Assembly: GCA_024653945.1 (NCBI GenBank)
Contig: JANLIT010000002.1
Location: forward strand, 146,508 to 210,507
DNA: 64,000 bases
Reading direction: 5' to 3'
DNA from: Candidatus Campbellbacteria bacterium
GTDB lineage: Bacteria; Patescibacteriota; Minisyncoccia; Phycocordibacterales; EsbW-18
The translations under genes were made by a program, and so were the position numbers. How positions within the stretch are numbered: position 1 is the first letter of the stretch; each line of letters opens with the position of its first letter. Below are positions 3,765 to 64,000 of this stretch, in pieces. The notes beneath the pieces were generated by a model. That model was not told the origin of the DNA. It worked only from the letters and a program-made list of their open reading frames with translations, and did not search any database.

Positions 3765-3812
3765 ATAAAGTAGAGGTTGGAAGTTGGATATGGGAAGTTG
3801 GAATGGGGGTGA

Positions 3813-17170: not shown

Positions 17171-17274
17171 ATAAGGCTTTAAAAAGGGGCTCGTGGGGGA
17201 ATGGGGTCAGACCCCTTTTCCTCATTAGTTCCAGCTCGAGATAGCCACCCCCAAATAGTGGAAGTTAGTGGTTA

Positions 17275-17294
17275 CCTGCCTGCCGGCAGGCAGG
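17275..17294. repeat. REP-like perfect 20-nt palindrome CCTGCCTGCCGGCAGGCAGG (copy 1 of 4)
   Basis: Flanked by ggaagttagtgg / gggatgttggaagttgg. The other copies are at 20019, 57524 and 59219. Confidence 0.75.
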
Positions 17295-17363
17295 GATGTT
17301 GGAAGTTGGTGATTTGTCCAAGTACTCTAATTGTAGTTTGAACTGGTATACTTTTGGTATGGT

Positions 17364-18544: not shown

Positions 18545-18811
18545 TTTTCCCAAACAAAATTAAAAAACATTAGTTTTAAAGACGCAGATATTGAAGGAAT
18601 TGTGATAGACAAAAACTCACTCAACAGTATTACTGTCAATACGGGGCAGGCCCTATATCTTGCCACACTATTGGGGTTTAAAATTGAAAATTAGGTCTAA
18701 AAAATTTATTTTTTTAAAACATTGCTCTTACTGGTAATTAGGAATACTATCCTCACCAGAAGAAATTGTTCCTCGTCAGCTTCACCCCACCACCAACCTA
18801 GGAGACGTGAC

Positions 18812-19498
18812 ATGAGCGTGAGTGAGAAGGTTATCGTAGCCACAGACGAGCTTCCTCTCGGTGCGTGCTTGGATTTGGCGCGCGCCATCGGGCAACAGGT
18901 CTATGCGTTCAAGGTTCACAACCTGTACGATATGGACCCGTCCATCGTCACCCAGCTTCACAAGGCAGGTGCGCGACGCGTCTGGGTTGACGCGAAACTT
19001 CACGACATCCCGAACACGGTCAGGCTTCGTGCTCAGGCATTCGCCGACGCAGGTGCAGACATCATCACGGTGCATGCATCGGGTGGTATCGAAATGATGA
19101 TGGCCGCACTTCAGAGCGGTATTCCCGAGATCTTTGCGATTACGGTTCTCACCTCTCTCTCGGAAGAGGAGACGCATCTATTACATGGGCAGCCGTCCAA
19201 GGCGGCAGTGCTCTACCTCGCGCGCATGGCCAAGCTTGCCGGCATGCAAGGTGTTGTCTGTTCGCCGAAGGAAGTCGGCATTCTCTCCAAACGTCCCGAG
19301 CTCAAAGGTCTCACTCTCGTGACGCCGGGAGTTCGTTCCGTCGGTAAGGATGCCGGCGACCAACAGCGTGTTGATACGCCCCTCGCGGCACTCAACGCCG
19401 GTGCGTCCTACCTCGTTGTGGGTCGCCAACTCACAAAGGCGCCCGATCCTGTCGCCGCTCTCGCCCAGCTCGAAGAAGAGATCGCCGAGGTAATCTGA
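18812..19498 (+). CDS. pyrF: Orotidine 5'-phosphate decarboxylase
   Basis: VIVATDE, DAKLHDIPNTV (the D-x-K-x-x-D-I-P-x-T signature), VHASGG. AGGAGACG SD. GC content is clearly higher than the window average. Confidence 0.8.
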   Translation: MSVSEKVIVATDELPLGACLDLARAIGQQVYAFKVHNLYDMDPSIVTQLHKAGARRVWVDAKLHDIPNTVRLRAQAFADAGADIITVHASGGIEMMMAALQSGIPEIFAITVLTSLSEEETHLLHGQPSKAAVLYLARMAKLAGMQGVVCSPKEVGILSKRPELKGLTLVTPGVRSVGKDAGDQQRVDTPLAALNAGASYLVVGRQLTKAPDPVAALAQLEEEIAEVI

Positions 19499-20018: not shown

Positions 20019-20038
20019 CCTGCCTGCCGGCAGGCGGG
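20019..20038. repeat. REP-like palindrome, degenerate copy (cctgcctgccggcaggcggg)
   Basis: One mismatch relative to the 20-nt consensus. Confidence 0.6.
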
Positions 20039-42760: not shown

Positions 42761-42982
42761 ATGAACAAAGACGACCCATCGCTCGCGTATCGCCAGGAAC
42801 AGGACGAATTTGCCATCTACGGATCGAATGGAAGTGGTCCTGTCGTGCTTTCACTCGAGGATTTTCGGAAACTTCTCGATGAAGGACACCGTCTGCTTCT
42901 AGACCGAAGTCTGCGTCGTCATGAGTGGAACAAAAAGACTCCACCCAACGATTCCGCGGAGGTATCTCATCAGGAGGCATGA
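42761..42982 (+). CDS. Hypothetical small acidic protein (GC-rich ORFan, SD GGGAGGG)
   Basis: MNKDDPSLAYRQEQDEF... 74 aa. Strong SD. Confidence 0.45.
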   Translation: MNKDDPSLAYRQEQDEFAIYGSNGSGPVVLSLEDFRKLLDEGHRLLLDRSLRRHEWNKKTPPNDSAEVSHQEA

Positions 42983-43023
42983 TGCTGTTGACGACAACGT
43001 AGCCTTTTCAAAGGAGGTGGCAT

Positions 43024-43269
43024 ATGTCACTGCACAGGAGCTTTCATTCCAAGATCTCACGGTCTCGTCGGAAGACTCGGCAGCAGACGCCAGGTCAGGC
43101 TCGTTCTGCCGAGCGCAAGCGCCAGTGCCAGAAGCGTCGGTTGAAGGGAGCCGATGTAGGGCGTCTCTATCAGGAGGCTCTGCGTCAGAGCGAGGAATTC
43201 CGGCGCTTCGAAAGGGACAGGGAGGCGAAGAACAGAGATAGGTATCCCTACAGCTACAGTCGCTGGTAG
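43024..43269 (+). CDS. Hypothetical Arg-rich basic small protein (GC-rich ORFan, SD AAGGAGGTG)
   Basis: MSLHRSFHSKISRSRRKTRQQ... 81 aa, about 30% Arg/Lys. Confidence 0.45.
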   Translation: MSLHRSFHSKISRSRRKTRQQTPGQARSAERKRQCQKRRLKGADVGRLYQEALRQSEEFRRFERDREAKNRDRYPYSYSRW

Positions 43270-43318
43270 GTTTTCGAAGCAAGAAGCAAGCCTCGCACGG
43301 AAGTGTGGGGCGTTTCAT

Positions 43319-45577: not shown

Positions 45578-46195
45578 ATGTCTCACGACACGCTCGGCAG
45601 AACAGTTGTGGCGTTTATGGATGCCAGCGAGGAGTCCCAGAATCTCATCACCGATTTTGCGGAGAAGCTCATGAATCCTACCCCCGAGTGGGTTCGAGAG
45701 TCAAAACACTTTCTTCGCAAGGAGCCGTGCTGGGTTTCGTATGGGGTGGTTGCCACTCCGATGCTCAACCTCCTCGAGTTCTTCAAAACTCGAGAGGGTC
45801 TCGGGGTCTCGTGGGAGTTTAAAGAGCAAATTCTCGCTCCAGCGCTCGCGATGGGGGGCGACTTGCTGGCAACGGTTGGCACGCCGTTTGACCTGCCGAA
45901 GGACATGGACGAGGGCGAAATCCGCAAGGAGCTCGGCGAGAACCATGTCTTCGAAGATGCTCGCTCGTTCTGCCTCTACCTTGCCAGCGCTCTCGGGCGT
46001 CAGTGGGACGGCAAGGATGGGGACTTCCTGACCAATGGGAGCGCGAACACCTTCTATGTTTGCGGACTCAACGGTGAGGTCTTTGTGGTCGACGCCTACT
46101 GGAGCACTGACGACAGCGGGTGGAGCGTGCTAGTGTATTACTTAGACACCATTCGCTGGGATGCAGGTGACCGTGCCTTTCCCTGCAGTTCCTGA
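45578..46195 (+). CDS. Hypothetical protein (GC-rich ORFan with AAGGAG SD)
   Basis: 205 aa. No recognisable motifs. GC content higher than the flanking recJ/rnhA. Confidence 0.45.
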   Translation: MSHDTLGRTVVAFMDASEESQNLITDFAEKLMNPTPEWVRESKHFLRKEPCWVSYGVVATPMLNLLEFFKTREGLGVSWEFKEQILAPALAMGGDLLATVGTPFDLPKDMDEGEIRKELGENHVFEDARSFCLYLASALGRQWDGKDGDFLTNGSANTFYVCGLNGEVFVVDAYWSTDDSGWSVLVYYLDTIRWDAGDRAFPCSS

Positions 46196-50625: not shown

Positions 50626-50698
50626 TATACAAATTGCTTTTCTTCTGCTATACATGCAGATAGGTTTGGTCTTTTAATCAACGAATATGGAGGGTGCC

Positions 50699-52027
50699 AT
50701 GGTTCAAACACTTCGTCGTGTGGCAGCAAAGGCCCGGGCGGTACGGTCAGAAGACCTCTTTTACTGTCCTGTCCATCGGTCTAGAATTAGTGTTGGGGCA
50801 TGTAAGGCATTCTGCTCTGTTCCGCAGAACAACACGGAACGGTGCACGAGGGAGTTTCACTGCGAGTCGCCGTGGCGACTCTGCTGGGCGTGTCTTCTGA
50901 ACCACGGTTTAGGAGAGAGGGGTGGTGTGGCAGAAAACAAGGACCGCGGACTCTGTGATTTTCATCTCAAGAACGGTATTGAGAAGCGTCCCGATTGGGC
51001 GCCAAAGAGAGATGGAGAAAGCGGGCACGGTTCTTCTATCGACGACATCTCAGACCGTATCAGGAGTCACTCGCACACGGCGGGGGGTGGAGGAAGCGGT
51101 ACAGTAAAGACACAGAAGACTATCCATCTCGTCAAAGGGAAACAAGTTCCCGTCGACACCGTTCTTGAAGTTGACTGTGCGCTGGTAGTTCCTCTGAGTG
51201 AACAGCCACGCACGTACTTCGACAAAGATGAGCTCGAGGGTCTCCTCAACTCAATTGCCGAAGCGGGGCAGATTCAGACCGTTCCGGCGGTTTCACTTCC
51301 CGACGGCACATTCCGCATTCGTGATGGTGAACGACGGTGGCGAGTGTGCACGAAGCTCAAGCGTCCGCTACGTGTCGTTGTCGTTCCCGAGCTTCCTCAT
51401 GAGGAGGAGATTGAACAGGCGGCAATCGCAAACTTCCTTCGGCAAGGTCACACACCGATTGAACAAGCGCGCATCTTCATGCGACTCAAGGAAGGACCGC
51501 TGAAGCGCACCGTCGCGAAGATTGGTCAGATGTTTGGCATGACGACCGCGAGCGTCTACAACCACCTCATCCTCATCGAGAAGCTCGACGTGCGCGTTCA
51601 GAATCTCATGGATCCGGTGAAGCAGGGAAGTTCAAAAGCAATCCTGCGTCCCTCGGTGGCTCAGTATCTCACCGCATTTCACGAACGTCCTGAAGAGCAG
51701 GTGGGGCTCGCGCGAGAAATTATGAAGCGCAAGCTCAACCTGCGCGAAGCAAAGACCTTGATCGACAAGTATGCCGACAAGCTCAAGATCAAGACGGGGC
51801 GTGGGCGAGAGGCACAACCGTATGACCACATCCGGACTATCAAACGGACGATGGCAAACACCAGTATCGTTCTCGATCGGTTCTCGGAATTCTCCGACGA
51901 CGATTGGGAGCGTCTGTGGAAGACGCACTCATGGACCGAGCGGGAACTTGTTGCCAATCGTTTGACCACGCTCATCAAACGACTACAGGAGCTCCAAGGT
52001 CACGTTGACCGGACGCTCAAAGGTTAG
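50699..52027 (+). CDS. ParB-like nuclease-domain protein with N-terminal 8-Cys cluster (GC-rich island)
   Basis: N-terminus CPVHRS..C..C..C..C..C..C..C. ParB_N motif FRIRDGERRWRV. HTH TVAKIGQMFGMTTASVYNHLIL. GGAGGG SD. GC far above the window average. Confidence 0.65.
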   Translation: MVQTLRRVAAKARAVRSEDLFYCPVHRSRISVGACKAFCSVPQNNTERCTREFHCESPWRLCWACLLNHGLGERGGVAENKDRGLCDFHLKNGIEKRPDWAPKRDGESGHGSSIDDISDRIRSHSHTAGGGGSGTVKTQKTIHLVKGKQVPVDTVLEVDCALVVPLSEQPRTYFDKDELEGLLNSIAEAGQIQTVPAVSLPDGTFRIRDGERRWRVCTKLKRPLRVVVVPELPHEEEIEQAAIANFLRQGHTPIEQARIFMRLKEGPLKRTVAKIGQMFGMTTASVYNHLILIEKLDVRVQNLMDPVKQGSSKAILRPSVAQYLTAFHERPEEQVGLAREIMKRKLNLREAKTLIDKYADKLKIKTGRGREAQPYDHIRTIKRTMANTSIVLDRFSEFSDDDWERLWKTHSWTERELVANRLTTLIKRLQELQGHVDRTLKG

Positions 52028-52232: not shown

Positions 52233-53462
52233 ATGCGAAAGCTCGCGATAGCGCTGTCTGTCCTCGTTCTCATGATCGTCGCCGTTCCGGCGATGGCATT
52301 CGAGATTACTCCAAACAACCCGATCGACAACGGCAATTTCGCCAAGTCGACGGCGTCGTGCGACGGCAAGTTCCTGATCGGACAGTCCGGTCAGAACAAT
52401 GTTGAAGTGTACACCCACGCGGGTGTCTACCTCAACTCGTTTGGGGCACCTAGCTACCAGCTCTCCGGATTCTTCGGTGAGTCGTTGGCCGTCACTCCCA
52501 ACTGCGCGACGGCCGTCGTCGGCGCCAAGGGGTACGATGGCACCGGTGCCATCTTCGTCTTCGACTGGAACGCATCTCTGGGTGAGTATCAATTCGTCGT
52601 GAAGAAAACGGCGGCGGGGCTCGTCCCGGGCGATGACTTCGGTCAGTCGGTCGCGGTGACCGACGATGGTCAAACCGCCTTTGGCGCGTCGTACCTCAAG
52701 AACAAAGTGTCTTCGTTCGCGCGGTCTGCAAGTTGGACCGAACACGTCGTTTCGATGCCCGATCTTTCGGCTAGCGATTACGCGGGGTTCGCCCTGTGTG
52801 TCGCGGGCGACGACTTGGGTGTCGGTGTTCCTCTGCAGTACAACAGCGGCATTCCCGGTGCACTCTACGTTCACCGAAAAAATACTGGTGGCGCAGGAAA
52901 CTGGGGGTACGTGACCAAGTTCACAGGCCTCGAGCGTCTCGGGTATTCATGCGGAGGGAGCGGACCACGTTTCATCTCCGGCGCTCCGCTTCACAACTTC
53001 GACACACTTCCTCCAGGGTCTGGTGCTGGACAAGGACAGGGTGTTGTGGTGACGTTCCGCCGACACGTCGGCGGGTCGTACACCGTCGAGCATACCTTTG
53101 CCCCCTCGCTCGGCTTCGCCGAGTGCGGTACGTCCGTCGGGATTTCCGGGATCAACGTCATGTTCGGCTGTCCGTACGCGGACGTGGGTTCGGTGGACGA
53201 TGGAAAGTCCAACGCCTTCTCTCGGGCAAACGGTCTGGGGAACTGGACTTCCGAGTTCACCCTGTTCGACAACGACCCACAGGTACTCGATCGTGTCGGA
53301 TTCTCCTGCGCTGTCGGTGGTGGGGAGGGGATTGCCGGTGCGCCGTTTTCCGGTGAGGTTGCTACCAATGCCGGAGCCGCATACTACAACACCTACTCGT
53401 TGGTGTTTGCCGACGGCTTCGAGTACGGCGATACGTTGGAGTGGTCGTCCGCCGTTCCGTAA
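52233..53462 (+). CDS. Secreted FG-GAP-repeat protein (integrin-alpha-like beta-propeller) (GC-rich island)
   Basis: Signal peptide MRKLAIALSVLVLMIVAVPAMA. At least four FG..A....GD..G..D...GAP-like repeats (FGESLAVT, FGQSVAVTDDGQTAFGAS, VGFSCAVGGGEGIAGAPF). AAGGAGAG SD. Confidence 0.6.
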   Translation: MRKLAIALSVLVLMIVAVPAMAFEITPNNPIDNGNFAKSTASCDGKFLIGQSGQNNVEVYTHAGVYLNSFGAPSYQLSGFFGESLAVTPNCATAVVGAKGYDGTGAIFVFDWNASLGEYQFVVKKTAAGLVPGDDFGQSVAVTDDGQTAFGASYLKNKVSSFARSASWTEHVVSMPDLSASDYAGFALCVAGDDLGVGVPLQYNSGIPGALYVHRKNTGGAGNWGYVTKFTGLERLGYSCGGSGPRFISGAPLHNFDTLPPGSGAGQGQGVVVTFRRHVGGSYTVEHTFAPSLGFAECGTSVGISGINVMFGCPYADVGSVDDGKSNAFSRANGLGNWTSEFTLFDNDPQVLDRVGFSCAVGGGEGIAGAPFSGEVATNAGAAYYNTYSLVFADGFEYGDTLEWSSAVP

Positions 53463-56273: not shown

Positions 56274-56334
56274 AAATCATTTATGAGAAATTTGACTTTA
56301 TTGAAACTTGATACTAGCACAGTAAAATGTGCCA

Positions 56335-56365
56335 GTCAAAGCCCAAAATCCAAAGCACAAAGCTC
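56335..56365 (+). repeat. AAAATCCAAAGCACAAAGCTCAAAA module (left arm flanking the four-helix-bundle gene)
   Basis: Module copies also at 232-262 (partial), 5745-5770 (AAAATCCAAA x2), 56771-56795 (each sub-module inverted) and 58071-58096. Confidence 0.6.
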
Positions 56366-56370
56366 AAAAA

Positions 56371-56760
56371 ATGACAAACGAAGTTCAACAAGAGAAGAAA
56401 ATATTTGATTTAGAAGAACGAAGTAGGACATTTGCAATGAATGTTCGACATTTTACGTCCACTCTTCAAAAAACTCAGGCAAATATAGAGGACGGTAAAC
56501 AACTCGTCAGGTCGTCAGGATCAGTGGGGGCTAATTACATTGAGGCAAATGAGTGTTTGAGTCGTAAAGATTTTGTTTTTCGTATACGAATTTGTCGTAA
56601 AGAATCTCGAGAAAGTAGCTATTGGCTTAGCCTTATTTCAATTAACACCGAGGAACTCGAAGGAGTCCGAAAACGCTTATACCGTGAGTCGTTGGAACTT
56701 GCTCGAATATTTAGTACTATCATGTGGAACACTGAAGCCAAAATAAAATCTTCTAAATAA
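56371..56760 (+). CDS. Four-helix-bundle protein of the 23S-rRNA intervening-sequence type (PF05635-like)
   Basis: GSVGANYIEANEC...RKDFVFRIRICRKESRESSYWL is the hallmark motif of this family. Confidence 0.7.
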   Translation: MTNEVQQEKKIFDLEERSRTFAMNVRHFTSTLQKTQANIEDGKQLVRSSGSVGANYIEANECLSRKDFVFRIRICRKESRESSYWLSLISINTEELEGVRKRLYRESLELARIFSTIMWNTEAKIKSSK

Positions 56761-57523: not shown

Positions 57524-57543
57524 CCTGCCTGCCGGCAGGCAGG
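57524..57543. repeat. REP-like 20-nt palindrome (copy 3), followed by a T-run
   Basis: cctgcctgccggcaggcagg then gatttttt. Confidence 0.75.
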
Positions 57544-57651
57544 GATTTTTTAAACCGGACCCCGCACTCTCAGAGTGGTAGGGGAAAGAAAAAAAGAGTG
57601 CGGGATGACGACTTTGAAAGTCTCGCCTCGCTCACTAACAAAGTCAGCCAC

Positions 57652-58068
57652 ATGTCTACAATCAACCAACTCATACGAAAGAATCGAAAGAAATCAGCTC
57701 GTAAGACAAAGACGACTGCTCTTGGTCGTGGTTTTAACACACTTGAGAACCGACCATCACGATACCCATCTCCATTTAAGCGTGGTGTGTGTACACAAGT
57801 GAAGACAACAACCCCAAAGAAACCAAACTCGGCTATTCGAAAAATTGCGCGTGTACGATTGACGAACGGTCAGGAAGTAACGGCGTACATTCCAGGAATG
57901 GGACACAAGTTGCAGGAACACTCGGTGGTGCTGTTGCGAGGCGGTCGTGTAAAAGACATCGGAGTTCGTTACACTATTGTTCGTGGAACATTTGATGCTG
58001 AAGGAGTAGAGAAGCGAAGAAAAGGACGAAGTCACTATGGGGCAAAAAGACCAAAAGTAACCAAATAA
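57652..58068 (+). CDS. rpsL: 30S ribosomal protein S12
   Basis: [10 protein letters not shown]...[54 protein letters not shown]. Confidence 0.9.
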
Positions 58069-58096: not shown

Positions 58097-58169
58097 AGAA
58101 CTTTAAATTATAAACAATCAAACATTTTTTGGATTTTAAATTTTGAACTTCGAATTTTAACTCATCATT

Positions 58170-58667
58170 ATGCGTCGCAAACTAAAAGAACGAGAAAAAC
58201 ACCCAATGCTTCCAGACCGAGTGTACCACTCAGTTACGGTCAGTAAGCTTATTGCGCACGTGATTAAAGATGGAAAGAAGAGTGTTGCTCAAAAGCTTGT
58301 GTATGATGCATTTGATATTTTGAAGACAAAGAACAACATTGAAGATCCTTCGGCATTTTTGGAACAAACAATTCAAAGTGTTGCGCCAACAATGGAAGTT
58401 CGCTCACGACGTGTGGGAGGTGCAAACTACCAGGTTCCTCATCCGGTTCGTCCCGCACGACAATTGGCCCTCGCACTTCGCTGGATTCTTGAAGGCGCTC
58501 GTGCAAAGAAAGGTGCAGATTTTGCAACACGACTCGCAGGAGAATTGCTTGCCGCAAGTAAAGGGGAGGGAGGTGCCATGGCAAAGCGTGACAACGTTCA
58601 CAAAATGGCAGAAGCCAACAAAGCATTTGCTCACTTCGCACTTGCGAGACCGAAAAAAAGAACGTAG
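58170..58667 (+). CDS. rpsG: 30S ribosomal protein S7
   Basis: VAPTMEVRSRRVGGANYQVP...ALRWI is the S7 core. Confidence 0.9.
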   Translation: MRRKLKEREKHPMLPDRVYHSVTVSKLIAHVIKDGKKSVAQKLVYDAFDILKTKNNIEDPSAFLEQTIQSVAPTMEVRSRRVGGANYQVPHPVRPARQLALALRWILEGARAKKGADFATRLAGELLAASKGEGGAMAKRDNVHKMAEANKAFAHFALARPKKRT

Positions 58668-58686
58668 TCATCATTTTTTCAAACAC

Positions 58687-58710
58687 GAAAACCGCCAACT
58701 GGCGGTTTTT
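58687..58710. terminator. Rho-independent terminator
   Basis: aaaaccgccaactggcggtttttt. Confidence 0.75.
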
Positions 58711-58783
58711 TGTTGACATAAATATCGAGAAAGAGTAGTGTGTTTTTAGGTTTTGTACTCTGTCTACAAAGAAAGGAAAAACA

Positions 58784-59068
58784 ATGACCACCGTTTCGCT
58801 GGAAAAGCTTCGAGAGGCCGTCGACTTTCTCAAGGGGGAAGAAGAAAGACTTCGACAGGTTTGTAAGCGAGCCTGTTACTGCGAAGAGAATCACATGGAT
58901 CTCAAAGGGGCGTGCCACCATTGCAACACTCACGGTCTCGTTTTCGATCTTGCGAAGACGGGTGGAAAAATTCTCGAGATGGAGACGGAGGAATTCCACA
59001 TCGAAGCACCGACCTTTCTCGCTCGTGTGCAGAAGCAGTTTCCTAAGGCAGCCGCAGCGGCTATCTGA
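58784..59068 (+). CDS. Hypothetical Cys/His-rich small protein inserted between rpsG and fusA (GC-rich)
   Basis: 94 aa with CYCEENH...CHHCNTHG (putative Zn site). Followed by a hairpin and a REP-like palindrome. Confidence 0.5.
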   Translation: MTTVSLEKLREAVDFLKGEEERLRQVCKRACYCEENHMDLKGACHHCNTHGLVFDLAKTGGKILEMETEEFHIEAPTFLARVQKQFPKAAAAAI

Positions 59069-59218
59069 GTCTGGTAGTCGCACCCCGCGAGCTCATATGA
59101 GCGAGCGGGGTTTCTTCATACCTATATATTTTTTCTCGTGTACATTGCCAAAAAGTCCAATGGTGCTATAGTGTCGTTGCCCGTGTGGGCGTTTTTATAT
59201 CATTGTTATTCCAACATC

Positions 59219-59238
59219 CCTGCCTGCCGGCAGGCAGG
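59219..59238. repeat. REP-like 20-nt palindrome (copy 4, inverted flank orientation relative to copy 1)
   Basis: ccaacatcc-cctgcctgccggcaggcagg-taacttccaac. Confidence 0.75.
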
Positions 59239-59369
59239 TAACTTCCAACTTCTAACCTCTACTTTATATGGACCGCGACTATCCTCTAGAAAAAGTACGT
59301 AACCCCGCACCAACGCAATGCGTGGTACGGGGCATGCTTCGGTATCAACATGTTCTAAATCATTAAACT

Positions 59370-61514
59370 ATGAATAGAGATTACCCACTTGAGAAAGTAA
59401 GAAATTTTGGAATTGTGGCGCACATTGACGCAGGAAAAACAACCGTGTCTGAGCGCGTGCTTTTTTATACAGGAGTGTCTCACAAAATTGGTGAAGTGCA
59501 TGAAGGAGATACCGTCATGGATTGGATGGACCAAGAGCGTGAACGTGGTATTACGATTACCGCCGCGGCAACGACGTGTTTTTGGACACCGTCGTATGAC
59601 ACGACGAACACGGCACTCAAGCACCGATTCAATCTTATTGATACCCCAGGACACATTGACTTTACGATTGAAGTGAAGCGCTCTCTCCGTGTGTTGGATG
59701 GTGCCGTTGTGGTATTTGACGGTGTGTCAGGAGTTGAACCACAGTCAGAAACAAACTGGCGTTATGCAGAAGAAGGAAAGGTGCCACGTATGTGTTTCAT
59801 CAACAAGTTGGACCGCATTGGTGCATCATTTGAACGCTCATACGCCTCTATTCTTGACCGCCTCACCAAGGACGCAGTTCGCATGCAAATTCCAATTGGT
59901 GAGGAAGAAAAACATGAAGGTGTGATTGATTTGCTCACGATGCGCGCATTTTATTTTGAAGGAGATAAAGGTAGTGTTCTCCGACAAGATGACATTCCTG
60001 AAAACTTAAAAGCAGACGCAGAAAAATATCGTCACGAACTTATTGAAAAAATTGTCTCCGAGGATGAAGCACTCATGCATCTGTACTTGGAAGGAAAAGA
60101 AATTCCACTTGCCGAACTAAAAGCGGTGCTTCGCAAGGCGGTTATTGCAAACCTCATCATTCCGGTGTTCACTGGTTCTGCGCTCAAAAACAAAGGTGTT
60201 CAATTAGTACTTGATGCGGTTATTGATTACCTCCCATCACCGCTTGATATTCCTCCCGCAAAAGGAATTGACCCAAATACAAATGAAGAAATTGTTCGTC
60301 ATGCGTCCGATGAAGAACCCTTCGCAGCTCTCGCATTTAAGGTGCAATCAGATCCATTCATTGGTCAGCTTACATTCTTCCGCGTGTACTCAGGTTCCCT
60401 TGAAGCCGGTTCGTATGTGTATAACGCTACAAAAGAAACAAAAGAGCGCGTTGGGCGTATTGTGCGTTTGCATGCAAACGATCGAGAAGAAGTGAAGAAA
60501 GTGTTTGCTGGAGAAATCGCAGCAGCGGTTGGACTTAAGGACACAAAAACATCCGATACGCTCTGTGATGAAGAGCACCCAATTATTCTTGAACGAATTA
60601 AAATTCCCGAACCAGTTATCTCTCTCCGTATTGAACCAAAAACAAAGGCAGACCAAGAAAAACTCGGCATGGCACTCAAACGTCTTTCGGATGAAGACCC
60701 AACCTTCCGCGTAACATCAGATCCAGAAACACTCGAAACCATCATTGCGGGCATGGGCGAATTGCACCTTGAAGTGCTTGTTGAACGCATGCGTCGTGAA
60801 TTTTCAGTTGATGCGAACGTTGGTAAGCCACAGGTGGCCTATCGTGAAACGATTCTCGGGGAAGCAGATGTTGAAAATAAATATGTTAAACAAACTGGTG
60901 GAAAAGGTCAGTATGGTCACGTGAAGATTAAAGTGAAGCCGATGGACACATCTATAAAAGATGAAGATTTGCCAAAGAACACAAAGCGAGATGAGGGATT
61001 TGAATTCATCAACAGCATCAAAGGAGGTGTTATTCCACAAGAATTTATTCCAGCAGTTCAGAAAGGACTTCGCGAAGCGATGGACCGAGGTATTGTGGCT
61101 GGTTATCGCATGGTGAACGTGTCCGTTGAACTCTATGATGGTTCGTACCACGATGTGGACTCATCTGAAATTGCGTTCAAGATTGCTGCATCACAGGCGT
61201 TACAAGAAGCTGCACGAAAATCACGCCCCGTGCTTCTTGAACCAATTATGAAAATTGAAGTGGTTATTCCAGAGCAATTCATGGGGGACATCACCGGAAA
61301 CCTTTCATCAAAGCGTGGACAAATTGAAGGGATGGAAGACCGCGGTCAGCTCAAAGTGGTTCGTGCGTTTGTTCCACTCTCTGAAATGTTTGGATACAGT
61401 ACAGCGCTTCGTTCTATGACGGAAGGACGTGGAAACTCAACAATGGAATTTGACCACTACGAAGTGGTTCCTGACAGCGTCGCAAAAGCAATTATTGAAC
61501 AGCGAGCAAAGTGA
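59370..61514 (+). CDS. fusA: Elongation factor G
   Basis: [10 protein letters not shown]1 motif, DTPGH, NKLD, domains II-V. 714 aa. Confidence 0.95.
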
Positions 61515-61639
61515 TAGTTGCACGTCGTTGATGATGTGTTACTCTCAACAAAGGTTCTTTTTCTTGGAGACGGGAGGTGCTCATAAAACACCGCAGTGAG
61601 TGCGGCAGTGCGGCAAAACCTGTGAGGATTGCCGTTCGT

Positions 61640-61674
61640 GCGCCAGTGGGTAACCACTGGCGCATTTTCTTTTT
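61640..61674. terminator. Rho-independent terminator
   Basis: gcgccagtgggtaaccactggcgc followed by attttcttttt. Confidence 0.7.
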
Positions 61675-62053
61675 ATTATATTTTTAACAAATTGACTTCC
61701 ATGATAGTGAGGCGTATCGTCGTTTTTAGGCAGTTCTTACAGACAAGTCGGAGAAAGGGCTCCCATGAAGAACCTTTTAAGGGAAACTGCAATTCTCTTC
61801 AAGCTTCTGGTTTTTGTTTCTCTTGCCTTGGTATATGTACTTGTCGTTGGCATTCCTGCCAGCGCAAAACGAGCCTAGGAGCGTTCCCACTAGCACCGGA
61901 GCCGTCCACAGTACGTTCAACTCACCCCGCCAAGGCAGGGTGATTTTTTAACAGTCCAACACACTTTTTACGGTCTTCTAAACGAGATATCCACTGTTAA
62001 GCCATTATTAAGAGAAATGAACTCAATAGTGCTTTATACTTGTAGGTAGCTCT

Positions 62054-64000
62054 ATGAGTCAGCCACTTTTCATTGAAAATAAGAAATTTATATCGACAAA
62101 GGAGGCGTCGAAACTGTCTGGTTATACCAGTGACTATATTGAACAGCTCAGTCGAGCGGGAAAAATCGAGTCAATGCTCGTGGGTCACGTTCGACTTGTT
62201 GAAGAAAAAAGCTTTCTTGCGTTTGTGGTGGGGGCAGAATATAAAGGTTTCGGCACACCTGCCCCCACTCTAGCTTCTGTAGAAGAATTTCCTGTTTTGA
62301 CGGACACACCAGAGACACTTGACGTACCGCATCCAGTCACCACAACTCCTACGCCTGCACACAACATAGCATCACCATATCGTTCTCCTAAAAAACTTCC
62401 AGCAGCCAGCACGCTCGTTGGCATATTTTTTATTTTGCTTGGACTCTTTGCACTTGAAACACATCCTGCATACGCACGCAAAACATATGACACACTCGCT
62501 CGCGTACCACACACGGTTCTTTCTTTAGAGGGAGTTGTTGTGAAGATACTTGCAGATGGAACTCGCGACACACTCAACATGACAGTAAGAGGTTTTGAAA
62601 CGTTTGCACGCACAGCACCACGACAGACATACAACACTCTTGCAGAAGTACCGAACACCGTCCTTACTTTTGTCACACACCCAATAAAAACAATTCAGGC
62701 AGTTGTACAGAACATACACACTTTTGCACGGACTCTCGTTAATATCAACTCTACGATTACGGGCATGTATACCACTGGTGCAGAAAAAACAGTAGCCCTG
62801 ACACTTGGGGGTTTTGATACCGTTGTGAGTGCAACACAACAACTTGCTCGAAACACACAATCGGTTTTCAAGAAAAGCCTTGCAGCTGTCGCGGAAAGTT
62901 TTAATGCGCCAAGTGTGGGCACTACCACACCAAGCACACCAACTTTTTTTGAAAGAATGGGGATTTTTTTTGGAAGAGTACGACTTGCACTACGCTCGTG
63001 GCTTGGTATCACCAATACACCACAGACCGTCATCAATCTGCCCTCAAACACTTCGCCAACCCTACCACCGTCGACAGTGACACAACCAATAGTGCAAGGA
63101 CCAGAGCGCACGATTGAAACACGCACCATCACAACCAATACCGTCTCCGGCATCACTTTTCTCGACATGACGAATGCCATTTCTGGACTTCGCGCAGAAC
63201 TGCTTCCTAAAATTAGAATCGCAGCTCTGTCTCCTGATAATCGTTCTCCCGACAACTTTCTCGAACTCTCCGGCGGTACACTCACGGGCACACTCACCGG
63301 CACATCACTGTCACTCTCAAACAACCTCTCTGCTCTTTCTGCCAACATTGATAGCGGAACCCTCGTTATTGATGACATAAACAATCGTGTTGGCGTTGGC
63401 ACGACCTCTCCAACCGACACGTTATCAGTCAACGGTCCTGTGTATCTTGTAAATACCACCCCAGGAGCAACAGGAAACCGACTCTACTCTGATTCGTTGG
63501 GCGACCTCTACTGGAGTGGCAACCTTGTTGGTGGTGGCGCTGTCGGTACATGGACATCTGCAGGTGGTGATGTGTACCGCCCAACGGGCAACGTCGGCAT
63601 CGGCACCACTTCCCCATATGCCAAGCTCTCCGTTGCAGGTGACCTCGCGCTTACCGGCGGTTTGTATGACAACAATGCAACGCGTGGCACAAACGGTGCA
63701 GTACTCTGGTCAACAGGTACCGGACTCACATGGGTCGCCACCACCACCCTTGGTCTCGCGGGATTTCCTGTCGACTACATCAATTCGTCATCCACGATTG
63801 CCCATGCAGGCAACGCATCACTTGGCAACCTCATCCAGTGGAATGGCAGTGCGTGGGTTGCGACAGCAACATCGACACTCAACGTACTGCACTCGTCTCT
63901 CGCAGGATTACTCACTGACGATCACACCCAGTACGCCTTGCTTGCAGGACGTTCTGGCGGACAAACGCTTGTTGGTGGTACATCTGGCTCGGCGACATTG
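62054..64000 (+). CDS. Large surface protein, partial (3' end outside the window): N-terminal HTH-like segment, one TM, then tail-fibre-like Gly/Thr-rich repeats
   Basis: Open frame from the ATG at 62054 to the window end with no stop. STKEASKLSGYTSDYIEQLSRAGKI is HTH-like. TM LVGIFFILLGLFAL. Repeats of the form VGIGTTSP.AKLSV / VGVGTTSPTDTLSV. Confidence 0.6.
   Translation, partial: MSQPLFIENKKFISTKEASKLSGYTSDYIEQLSRAGKIESMLVGHVRLVEEKSFLAFVVGAEYKGFGTPAPTLASVEEFPVLTDTPETLDVPHPVTTTPTPAHNIASPYRSPKKLPAASTLVGIFFILLGLFALETHPAYARKTYDTLARVPHTVLSLEGVVVKILADGTRDTLNMTVRGFETFARTAPRQTYNTLAEVPNTVLTFVTHPIKTIQAVVQNIHTFARTLVNINSTITGMYTTGAEKTVALTLGGFDTVVSATQQLARNTQSVFKKSLAAVAESFNAPSVGTTTPSTPTFFERMGIFFGRVRLALRSWLGITNTPQTVINLPSNTSPTLPPSTVTQPIVQGPERTIETRTITTNTVSGITFLDMTNAISGLRAELLPKIRIAALSPDNRSPDNFLELSGGTLTGTLTGTSLSLSNNLSALSANIDSGTLVIDDINNRVGVGTTSPTDTLSVNGPVYLVNTTPGATGNRLYSDSLGDLYWSGNLVGGGAVGTWTSAGGDVYRPTGNVGIGTTSPYAKLSVAGDLALTGGLYDNNATRGTNGAVLWSTGTGLTWVATTTLGLAGFPVDYINSSSTIAHAGNASLGNLIQWNGSAWVATATSTLNVLHSSLAGLLTDDHTQYALLAGRSGGQTLVGGTSGSATL

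What the first reader, a model, noticed from the sequence alone, without database searches (positions are those of the whole stretch)
58668..59369. Foreign-looking insertion splitting the conserved rpsG-fusA junction of the str operon
In most bacteria fusA follows rpsG within a few dozen nucleotides. Here 700 nt intervene. They contain a terminator, a GC-rich 94-aa Cys/His-rich protein (CYCEENH...CHHCNTHG) with its own SD, a second hairpin and a REP-like palindrome.

The insertion probably uncouples fusA from the rpsL-rpsG transcript. It places an ORFan zinc-binding-like protein in one of the most conserved operons, so a ribosome-associated accessory protein is a possibility.
Basis: partly seen in the sequence, partly recalled or inferred. 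Interest (0 to 1): 0.5.

Follow-up and report, generated by a model that had tools for sequence, protein, structure and literature searches.

The report
Swappable gene slot between rpsG and fusA
In this tiny-genome bacterium (Candidatus Campbellbacteria) the gap between two core translation genes is a slot where close relatives carry different small genes; here it holds a rare, probably zinc-binding 94-residue protein of unknown role, which is a modest curiosity rather than a new ribosomal component.

Summary
rpsG ends at 58667 and fusA starts at 59370. The 702-nt gap contains a strong terminator, a real 94-aa gene with its own promoter-like site and SD, a second hairpin and a dispersed palindrome. 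In 77 related Patescibacteria the median gap is 97 nt.

Relatives with 91-97% identical S7 share the flanks (L28-IVP-M50-S12-S7 ... EF-G). In the gap they carry unrelated cargo: a ~280-aa membrane protein, or a 171-aa plus a 266-aa protein. More distant relatives carry nothing. Only one Logan contig has the 94-aa gene (70% identity), also upstream of fusA. So this is an accessory-gene hotspot, not a conserved operon member.

The insertion does not uncouple fusA. The rpsG terminator and a conserved fusA promoter plus 5' hairpin also occur in relatives with empty slots.

The protein belongs to a rare family seen so far only in Patescibacteria. It has an invariant CxC...C..C/H motif and a confident helical-bundle model, with no Pfam, PDB or defence-system match. 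Homologues elsewhere are not linked to ribosomal genes.

Extra finding: a degenerate in-frame copy of fusA codons 1-12 lies 102 nt upstream of the true start. It looks like a recombination scar.

The parts
58170..58667 (+). rpsG (ribosomal protein S7), the left core flank of the slot
   Evidence: Pfam PF00177, 2.5e-53. 100% identical to MCR4274728.1 of Candidatus Campbellbacteria.
58682..58714 (+). T1: intrinsic terminator directly after rpsG, conserved in relatives
   Evidence: -17.1 kcal/mol, z -4.5, T6 tail. Homologous AAAACCGCC..GGCGGTTTT hairpins follow rpsG in L090, L093, L002 and L004.
58713..58741 (+). P1: promoter-like site of the cargo gene (TTGACA-17-TAGTGT)
   Evidence: Read. The same GTTGAC..AAAGAGTAGTGTG precedes a different cargo in L091. 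Below the threshold of the consensus scan, so this is inferred.
58784..59068 (+). 94-aa gene with an AAGGA SD at 58773..58777. It encodes a small helical protein with the motif CxC-x10-CxxC(H) and is probably zinc-binding.
   Evidence: dN/dS 0.11 against L001. C31, C33, G42, C44 and F71 are invariant, and position 47 is C or H. AF2 pLDDT 91.7. No Pfam, PHROG, NCBIfam or PADLOC hit.
59082..59111 (+). T2: hairpin/terminator after the 94-aa gene
   Evidence: -22.5 kcal/mol, z -4.2. A homologous hairpin follows the 94-aa gene in L001. It resembles the hairpin after rpsG in L003.
59145..59172 (+). P2: conserved fusA promoter (TTGCCA-16-TG-TATAGT)
   Evidence: 10 of 12 matches with an extended -10. 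The same site occurs in L003, L004 and L090, and in L001, L002, L091 and L093.
59178..59196 (+). Conserved GCCC-loop-GGGC hairpin plus T5 at the predicted 5' end of the fusA transcript
   Evidence: The stem is conserved and the loop varies among W and L001-L004, L090, L093. Its function (5' stabiliser or attenuator) is inferred.
59209..59242 (.). REP-like element (20-nt perfect palindrome 59219..59238 plus flanks) inserted in the fusA leader
   Evidence: 4 copies in the window against 0 expected. A 34-nt match at 100% identity lies at 17271..17304. Absent from all 95 related loci. Relatives' leaders lack it.
59268..59303 (+). Degenerate duplicate of fusA codons 1-12 ([12 protein letters not shown]). 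It opens a 32-codon uORF (59268..59366) in frame with fusA, whose stop lies 3 nt before the fusA ATG.
   Evidence: 92% identical to the fusA start of L003 (33/36 nt) and 67% to this genome's own. From the alignment it differs from L090's fusA start at 4 of 36 nt. Only this window has two copies among 96 sequences.
59304..59369 (+). 66-nt unique insert between the pseudo-start and the true start. It contains hairpin 59303..59332.
   Evidence: No match elsewhere in the window or in any locus. Hairpin -19.4 kcal/mol, z -2.5.
59370..61514 (+). fusA (EF-G), the right core flank. Its first 36 nt are unusually diverged.
   Evidence: Pfam EF-G domains. 9-12 differences from L090, L093 and L091 in nt 1-36, against about 5 per 36 nt afterwards.

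Best explanation
The rpsG-fusA interval of this Candidatus Campbellbacteria genome is an accessory-gene hotspot bounded by two conserved core genes.

The ancestral state for the clade already separates the genes. An rpsG terminator is followed by a dedicated fusA promoter (P2), a 5' hairpin and an AU-rich leader without an SD. Whatever lies between the terminator and P2 turns over among lineages. In this genome the occupant is a self-contained cassette of promoter-like site, SD, 94-aa gene and terminator.

The product is a cytoplasmic protein of about 10.6 kDa. It is predicted to be a three- to four-helix bundle pinned by one tetrahedral metal site, probably Zn, formed by C31, C33, C44 and C47. 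It belongs to a rare family found so far only in Patescibacteria, either free-standing or as the C-terminal domain of ~215-aa proteins. It most likely acts by binding a partner protein or a metal, as a strain-specific accessory function and not as part of the ribosome.

Turnover most likely proceeds by recombination of incoming DNA anchored in the conserved flanking coding sequence: the rpsG 3' end and the fusA block that encodes the G1 motif from codon 13. When one joint is illegitimate it leaves scars. Here the scar is the old fusA start (codons 1-12) stranded 102 nt upstream of a replacement start. A lineage-specific REP-like element later landed in the leader.

Shown: the anatomy, cargo variability, promoter and terminator conservation, purifying selection and motif conservation. 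Inferred: transcription units, metal binding, the recombination mechanism and the protein's role.
For: Slot variability with conserved flanks:
- This window carries the 94-aa gene.
- L090, L093 and L002 carry a 276-292-aa membrane protein.
- L091/L092 (CP064977.1) and L095 carry a 171-aa gene. L091/L092 also carry a 266-aa gene; the L095 contig ends just after the 171-aa gene.
- L003 and L004 are empty (125 and 197 nt).
- L001 carries the 94-aa homologue plus a 153-aa membrane protein.
- These cargos are mutually unrelated by blastp/tblastn.
- Across 77 relatives the median gap is 97 nt, and 9 gaps exceed 380 nt with assorted ORFs.

Conserved boundaries:
- T1 and P2 with the hairpin are conserved whatever the cargo.

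The gene is real:
- dN/dS is 0.11.
- 17 HMMER hits share the invariant CxC..G.C motif.
- AF2 pLDDT is 91.7.
- Hosts of remote homologues are Minisyncoccota and Moranbacteria.

Recombination:
- L001 and L004 differ at 4 of 108 nt from the P2 -35 through fusA codon 12. After that they differ at 9-10 per 36 nt.
- The pseudo-start in this window ends at the same codon 12/13 boundary and is 92% identical to the fusA start of L003. It differs from L090's start at 4 of 36 nt (read).
- The real start carries 9-12 changes in 36 nt.
- Several cargos are GC-rich relative to their host fusA.

Literature: hotspots flanked by core genes and lacking mobile-element genes are a described pattern (PMC5635113). 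Integration with one homologous and one illegitimate joint is described (PMC3240628).
Against: - No transcript data exist. The promoters and terminators are consensus matches only.
- The direction of history is unresolved. Synonymous sites are saturated between this window and L001 for both fusA (pS 0.78) and the 94-aa gene (pS 0.68). The gene could therefore be an old resident lost elsewhere rather than an import.
- Only 141 nt of fusA are available for L001.
- The divergence excess in fusA nt 1-108 is modest: 23 observed differences from L090 (summed). About 15 would be expected from the 14.3% overall divergence, my own arithmetic.
- The 66-nt insert has no identifiable donor.
- The protein's function is a guess.
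Confidence: 0.62

Rival explanations
1. The 94-aa protein is a lineage-conserved member of the str operon that works with the ribosome or EF-G.
For: It sits between S7 and EF-G in two diverged lineages (this window and L001). It is under purifying selection. Small Cys4 proteins are common among ribosomal proteins (general knowledge). One remote homologue lies two genes from L33 and another lies next to Obg.
Against: Six of the closest related loci (L090, L093, L002, L091, L092, L095) have other genes in the slot, and L003 and L004 have none. It has its own promoter-like site and is bracketed by terminators. Remote homologues share no common neighbours. There is no similarity to any ribosomal protein family in Pfam, NCBIfam or PDB.
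Confidence: 0.06
2. The slot is serviced by a dedicated site-specific mechanism, either integron-like cassettes or an element that targets the 5' end of fusA and carries a replacement promoter plus codons 1-12.
For: Two independent boundaries fall at fusA codon 12/13: the L001/L004 identity break and the pseudo-start in this window. In L001 the 153-aa cassette is flanked by a ~65-nt diverged direct repeat of hairpin T2 plus the -35 of P2. Hairpins starting CCCCGC recur at cassette ends.
Against: No integrase or transposase was seen next to the slot in this window or in any relative (gene tables; Pfam). The hairpins lack integron attC core sites (by eye). The flanking 'repeats' are diverged, as expected for donor-derived homologous sequence rather than target duplication. 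Codon 13 is where the universally conserved G1-motif coding block begins, which is an obvious homologous anchor.
Confidence: 0.1
3. The 94-aa gene is an ancient resident of this position that was lost or replaced in other lineages. It is not an insertion into this genome.
For: A homologue with 70% identity lies at the same position in L001, with the same 5' UTR and downstream hairpin. Its amino-acid divergence matches that of S7 between the two lineages (71% for this window against L004). Synonymous sites are saturated. Composition in L001 is native-like.
Against: It needs at least three independent losses or replacements (L003, L004 and the L090/L093/L091/L095/L002 group). In this genome the gene's GC3 is about 1.8 sd above the mean. 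Mosaic identity patterns show that DNA at this junction moves between lineages.
Confidence: 0.2
4. The arrangement is an artefact: a chimeric metagenome assembly creates the duplicated fusA start, or the ORF is spurious.
For: The source is a metagenome-assembled genome. The duplicated start is unique to this window.
Against: The two copies share no k-mer longer than about 6 nt at the junctions, so a de Bruijn mis-join is unlikely (read). The ORF has homologues, purifying selection and a confident fold. An independent assembly (L001) has the same gene upstream of fusA.
Confidence: 0.02

Closest known systems
Horizontal-transfer hotspots / flexible genomic islets between conserved core genes (PMC5635113)
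   Same: The two core flanks are identical across related genomes and the gene content between them differs. Turnover is rapid, no mobile-element genes were seen in the slot, several cargos have atypical composition, and the mosaic flanks suggest homologous recombination.
   Different: The slot lies inside the str gene cluster, which is normally tightly packed, and in a genome of about 0.8 Mb. Cargos are only one or two small genes. The right boundary reaches into the first 12 codons of an essential gene.
Homology-facilitated illegitimate recombination in transformable bacteria (PMC3240628)
   Same: A stranded old gene start followed by unique DNA and a replacement start is what one homologous joint (in the fusA G1 block) plus one illegitimate joint would leave.
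   Different: No donor was identified. The process itself was not observed, and competence of this organism is only presumed. A T2SS-F/PilC-like gene is present in the window.
Canonical str operon (rpsL-rpsG-fusA-tufA) as in E. coli (general knowledge)
   Same: The order rpsL-rpsG-fusA is kept.
   Different: There is a terminator after rpsG and fusA has a separate promoter. No tuf follows fusA within the 2.5 kb left in the window. The downstream ORF of at least 648 aa has no Pfam hit.
REP/BIME-type repeated extragenic palindromes
   Same: A perfect 20-nt GC-rich palindrome with conserved flanks, several intergenic copies, and one copy doubling as a terminator (57524).
   Different: The sequence is unrelated to enterobacterial REPs and specific to this lineage (absent from 95 related loci). 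No RAYT-type transposase was looked for.
Small Cys4 zinc-binding modules (e.g. B-box, SEC-C, the Hsp33 CxC..CxxC switch)

Membership tests
Core-gene-flanked HGT hotspot / genomic islet | Same pair of conserved flanking genes in related genomes | tested here: met
   S12-S7 on the left and EF-G on the right in the window and in L002-L004, L090-L093; L28/IVP/M50 lie further left where the contigs reach. L095 shows the left flank only.
Core-gene-flanked HGT hotspot / genomic islet | Different, non-homologous gene content between the flanks in closely related genomes | tested here: met
   Three unrelated cargo sets plus empty slots, with no cross-hits by blastp or tblastn.
Core-gene-flanked HGT hotspot / genomic islet | Signs of foreign origin or recombination (atypical composition, mosaic flanks) | tested here: inconclusive
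   The 94-aa gene's GC3 is +1.8 sd. Cargo in L091 and L001 is GC-rich, while cargo in L090 and L093 is native-like. There is a sharp identity break between L001 and L004 at codon 12/13.
Co-transcribed str operon | rpsG and fusA adjacent and read as one transcript | tested here: not met
   702-nt gap, two terminator hairpins and a 10/12 promoter match before fusA. Transcription itself is not testable here.
Ribosome-associated accessory protein | Conserved presence in the lineage and conserved linkage to ribosomal genes among homologues | tested here: not met
   Absent from eight of the nine related slot loci examined in detail (L002-L004, L090-L093, L095). Remote homologues have varied neighbours.
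Ribosome-associated accessory protein | Physical association with ribosomes or factors | not testable with these tools
   Needs biochemistry.
Zinc-binding small protein | Four conserved Cys/His ligands | tested here: met
   C31, C33 and C44 are invariant, and position 47 is C or H, in 18 sequences and in 9 long homologues.
Zinc-binding small protein | Membership of a described zinc-finger family | tested here: not met
   No Pfam, NCBIfam or PDB sequence match.
Zinc-binding small protein | Metal actually bound / ligands adjacent in 3D | not testable with these tools
Needs ICP-MS or a solved structure.
Integron gene cassette | IntI integrase and attC recombination sites at cassette ends | not tested
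   No integrase among the genes called next to the slot, but the whole genome was not scanned. The hairpins lack an obvious GTTRRRY core by eye.
REP-like repeated palindrome | Multiple intergenic copies of a palindromic unit beyond chance | tested here: met
   4 copies against 0 in 100 shuffles, all between ORFs.
Anti-phage defence system component | Match to a known defence protein model | tested here: not met
   PADLOC gave no hit for the 94-aa protein, its long homologue or the relatives' cargos.

The most novel reading that the evidence does not exclude
The rpsG-fusA slot of Campbellbacteria and related Paceibacteria may be serviced by a dedicated exchange mechanism. It would swap whole modules of cargo gene(s) plus the fusA promoter and leader plus fusA codons 1-12, with a fixed right-hand joint at codon 12/13. 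Cargo would thereby be tied to expression of an essential gene. In addition, the 94-aa Cys4 protein may define a new Patescibacteria-specific metal- or redox-responsive regulator that acts on translation.
Probability: 0.08. Interest if true: 0.7.

Novelty: new member of a known kind. Interest (0 to 1): 0.33.

Why it matters
Patescibacteria have some of the smallest and most streamlined bacterial genomes, and the str cluster is among the most conserved gene arrangements known. This locus shows that even there a fixed chromosomal slot takes up and swaps small accessory genes. The core-gene flanks appear to act as recombination anchors.

It also gives a concrete place to look for strain-specific functions in organisms that cannot yet be cultured alone. 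One such candidate is a previously undescribed, probably zinc-binding small protein family.

The practical lesson is that the long gap does not signal a new ribosomal component, and that fusA in this clade has its own promoter whatever the slot holds.

Tried and rejected
Searches on the 94-aa protein and related proteins that found nothing:
- Pfam, PHROGs, NCBIfam and PADLOC on the 94-aa protein.
- Pfam on the 18 family members of alignment A2.
- Pfam and PADLOC on the relatives' cargos.
- NCBIfam on the long homologues.
- PDB sequence profiles: nothing below E 0.26.
- Foldseek against PDB: no hit with E <= 0.001.
- afdb50 was unavailable.

Collection scans:
- The 2-sequence alignment of the 94-aa protein found no relative in GTDB genomes or JGI metagenomes.
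- Exact look-up of this window's own S7 and 94-aa protein found no record.

Other ideas rejected:
- Rfam gave only sub-threshold chance hits in the gap (RNAI E 0.21, cyano-S1 leader E 0.87), so no known riboswitch or leader is present.
- Wholesale replacement of fusA is rejected. fusA is 86% identical to relatives along its whole length, similar to the relatives among themselves.
- Simple tandem duplication for the double fusA start is rejected. The sequences upstream of the two copies are unrelated.
- Programmed ribosomal bypass is rejected as unnecessary, because the second copy has a complete start.
- The rpsG 3' half shows no mosaic signal.

Full report
OBSERVATION

The window carries rpsL (57652..58068), rpsG (58170..58667) and fusA (59370..61514), all confirmed by Pfam.
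- a strong terminator hairpin right after rpsG (58682..58714, -17.1 kcal/mol, z -4.5, T6 tail);
- a 94-aa ORF (58784..59068) preceded by AAGGA 6 nt upstream and by TTGACA-17-TAGTGT;
- a second hairpin (59082..59111, -22.5 kcal/mol);
- a perfect 20-nt palindrome (59219..59238) with four copies in the window (one with 1 mismatch) against none expected.

The ORF is moderately GC-rich. It has GC 52.5% and GC3 57.4%, against 45.2 +/- 4.7% and 40.5 +/- 9.4% for 63 long ORFs, and 5-7 of those ORFs are as GC-rich.

WHOSE GENOME

S7 of the window is 100% identical to MCR4274728.1, a Candidatus Campbellbacteria MAG. The nearest genomes are all Patescibacteria/Paceibacteria.

IS THE GAP UNUSUAL?

Yes. 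In 77 related genomes the median rpsG-fusA gap is 97 nt and many are under 30 nt. Nine exceed 380 nt and contain assorted ORFs, for example a 205-aa membrane protein, a four-helix-bundle protein and others.

IS THE 94-AA ORF A GENE?

Yes.
- One close homologue exists (P0001, 70% identity, Logan contig L001).
- The comparison gives dN/dS 0.11, with most changes at third codon positions.
- An exhaustive HMMER search of 1.84 billion representatives found 17 hits. A profile search of the 5.8-billion-cluster set found 13.
- The family members are 84-126 aa long, or form the C-terminal domain of proteins of about 215 aa.
- C31, C33, G42, C44 and F71 are invariant, D39 is nearly so, and position 47 is Cys or His. 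This gives a CxC-x10-CxxC/H four-ligand pattern.
- AlphaFold2 models the protein confidently (pLDDT 91.7) as a helical bundle, with the Cys pairs at the end of helix 1 and the start of helix 3.
- The long homologue adds an N-terminal domain of mixed strands and helices.
- Hosts of remote homologues are other Patescibacteria (Minisyncoccota, Moranbacteria).
- Their gene neighbourhoods differ from one another and are not the str cluster.

WHAT RELATIVES HAVE AT THIS POSITION

The closest relatives have S7 91-97% identical. For L090, L093 and L091 fusA is 86% identical at the nucleotide level. Where the contigs reach, they share the synteny L28, IVP, M50 peptidase, S12, S7, slot, EF-G. The slot content differs:

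| Locus | Slot content |
|---|---|
| This window | 94-aa gene |
| L090, L093, L002 | 276-292-aa membrane protein |
| L091/L092 (complete genome CP064977.1) | 171-aa gene plus 266-aa gene |
| L095 | 171-aa gene (contig ends just after it) |
| L003, L004 (more distant) | empty, 125 and 197 nt |
| L001 | 94-aa homologue plus a 153-aa membrane protein, upstream of fusA |

These cargos are mutually unrelated. None has a Pfam or defence-system match.

CONSERVED BOUNDARIES

A terminator hairpin follows rpsG in all the relatives. fusA is always preceded by the same promoter-like site (TTGyCA-16-TG-TATAGT, 10 of 12 matches). That site is followed at once by a GCCC-loop-GGGC hairpin, a T5 run and an AU-rich leader without an SD. 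This holds in the window, in empty-slot relatives L003 and L004, in L090 and in the others.

Separation of fusA from rpsL-rpsG is therefore ancestral to the clade and was not caused by the 94-aa gene. The hairpin begins about 7 nt after the -10 element, so I infer a 5'-terminal stem-loop of the fusA mRNA rather than a terminator.

SCARS OF REARRANGEMENT

Three scars are visible.
- The fusA leader of this genome carries a REP-like element (59209..59242). A 34-nt identical copy lies at 17271..17304. The element is absent from all 95 related loci and from the relatives' leaders.
- 59268..59303 encodes [12 protein letters not shown], a duplicate of fusA codons 1-12. It is in frame with fusA and opens a 32-codon uORF whose TAA lies 3 nt before the true ATG.
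  - This copy sits in the ancestral promoter-leader context.
  - It is 92% identical to the fusA start of L003 and 67% to this genome's own start. It differs from L090's start at 4 of 36 nt (read).
  - The true start has 9-12 differences in 36 nt from close relatives, against about 5 per 36 nt further on.
  - The 66 nt between the copies match nothing.
  - No other locus has two copies.
- L001 and L004 differ at only 4 of 108 nt from the -35 of the fusA promoter through codon 12. After that they differ at 9-10 per 36 nt. This is a sharp recombination boundary at the same codon 12/13 position.

Codon 13 is where the universally conserved G1-motif block ([13 protein letters not shown]) begins, which makes it a natural homology anchor. 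In L001 the extra 153-aa cassette is bracketed by a diverged ~65-nt repeat of the hairpin plus the -35 element.

MECHANISM

The best reading is a hotspot for gene turnover between two core genes, the pattern described across bacteria in PMC5635113. Exchange is driven by recombination anchored in the conserved flanks. Occasional joints with one homologous and one illegitimate end (as defined in PMC3240628) would explain the stranded old fusA start. A T2SS-F/PilC-type gene in the window is compatible with DNA uptake, but that link is inference.

Whether this genome imported the 94-aa gene or kept an old resident cannot be settled:
- synonymous sites are saturated for both fusA and the 94-aa gene between the two carriers;
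- the gene looks native in L001 and somewhat GC-rich here.

For the protein, I commit to a small cytoplasmic, zinc-stabilised helical adaptor or metal-binding protein with a strain-specific accessory role, at low confidence. Nothing supports a ribosomal role.

RIVALS

- A conserved ribosome-linked operon member is contradicted by its absence from close relatives.
- A dedicated site-specific cassette system is suggested by the coincident codon-12 boundaries, but no recombinase or att site was seen.
- Ancient residence with repeated loss remains possible.
- An assembly artefact is unlikely, because the two fusA starts share no long k-mer and an independent assembly shows the same gene before fusA.

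VERDICT

The feature is real and the description accurate. The interpretation needs three corrections:
- it is a variable accessory slot, not a one-off intrusion;
- it is not the cause of fusA's separate transcription;
- it is probably unrelated to the ribosome.

It is a new example of a known kind of locus and carries an undescribed small protein family. Interest is modest.

Noticed in passing
window 17271-17304, 20019-20038, 57524-57543, 59209-59242: A lineage-specific REP-like repeat. It is the perfect palindrome CCTGCCTGCCGGCAGGCAGG with CCAACATC / TAAC..AACTTCC flanks, always between ORFs. The copy at 57524 is followed by a T-run and scores as a terminator for the M50 peptidase gene. It is absent from all 95 related loci.
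   Followed up: partly
window 3765-3790 (- strand) and 59244-59270 (+): Two unrelated genes share an almost identical G-poor leader, CCAACTTC(C/T)AACCTCTACTTTAT, immediately before the ATG (24 nt, 96%). It could be a mobile or selected translation-initiation leader related to the REP flanks.
   Followed up: no
window 59268-59366: A 32-codon uORF begins with a copy of the EF-G N-terminus. It ends with TAA 3 nt before the fusA ATG (TAA-ACT-ATG), so fusA may be translated by termination-reinitiation.
   Followed up: partly
L001 326-1075: A 153-aa gene for a multi-pass membrane protein is bracketed by a diverged ~65-nt direct repeat (hairpin CGCCCCGCGAGC... plus CTTCATATCTCATTGCCAAAG). It appears to be inserted between the -35 and -10 of the fusA promoter.
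   Followed up: partly
L001 1041-1254 vs L004 4623-4836: The fusA promoter, leader and first 12 codons are 96% identical between two lineages whose fusA bodies differ by about 25%. This is a sharp recombination boundary at codon 12/13.
   Followed up: yes
window 57561-57570 / 57595-57604: A perfect 10-bp inverted repeat, CCCGCACTCT ... AGAGTGCGGG with a 24-nt A-rich loop, lies about 50 nt upstream of rpsL. It may be an rpsL leader structure. It has no Rfam match.
   Followed up: no
window 56329-56760: A four-helix-bundle '23S rRNA intervening sequence protein' gene (PF05635) lies between L28 and the M50 peptidase. It is present in L091-L093 and L095 and absent in L090, so it is another small variable gene near the str cluster.
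   Followed up: no
window 61515-64000: fusA is not followed by tuf. After a small 37-aa ORF, an ORF of at least 648 aa starts at 62054 and runs off the window, with no Pfam hit. In L090 the corresponding position holds a 1442-aa protein with a Peptidase_S74 domain.
   Followed up: partly
window, e.g. 45578-46195, 52233-53462, 50687-52027, 18722-19498, 42899-43318: A minority of ORFs have GC3 of 0.54-0.71 against a mean of 0.40. They include a ParB-like protein and an FG-GAP repeat protein, and may be further acquired genes.
   Followed up: partly
window 57640-57654, 58155-58172, 59355-59372 vs 58770-58786: rpsL, rpsG and fusA have no recognisable Shine-Dalgarno sequence. The accessory 94-aa gene has a clear AAGGA, conserved in L001.
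   Followed up: no
P0016, P0018-P0025 (loci L082-L087): In other Patescibacteria the 94-aa module is fused behind an N-terminal domain of about 115 aa with mixed strands and helices and no family match. In L082 the gene lies three genes upstream of a heavy-metal P-type ATPase, with a redoxin gene two genes further downstream.
   Followed up: partly
L002 about 2800-2905: The closest GTDB relative has a masked run of N inside fusA. This truncates protein alignments there and explains the apparent partial EF-G match.
   Followed up: no
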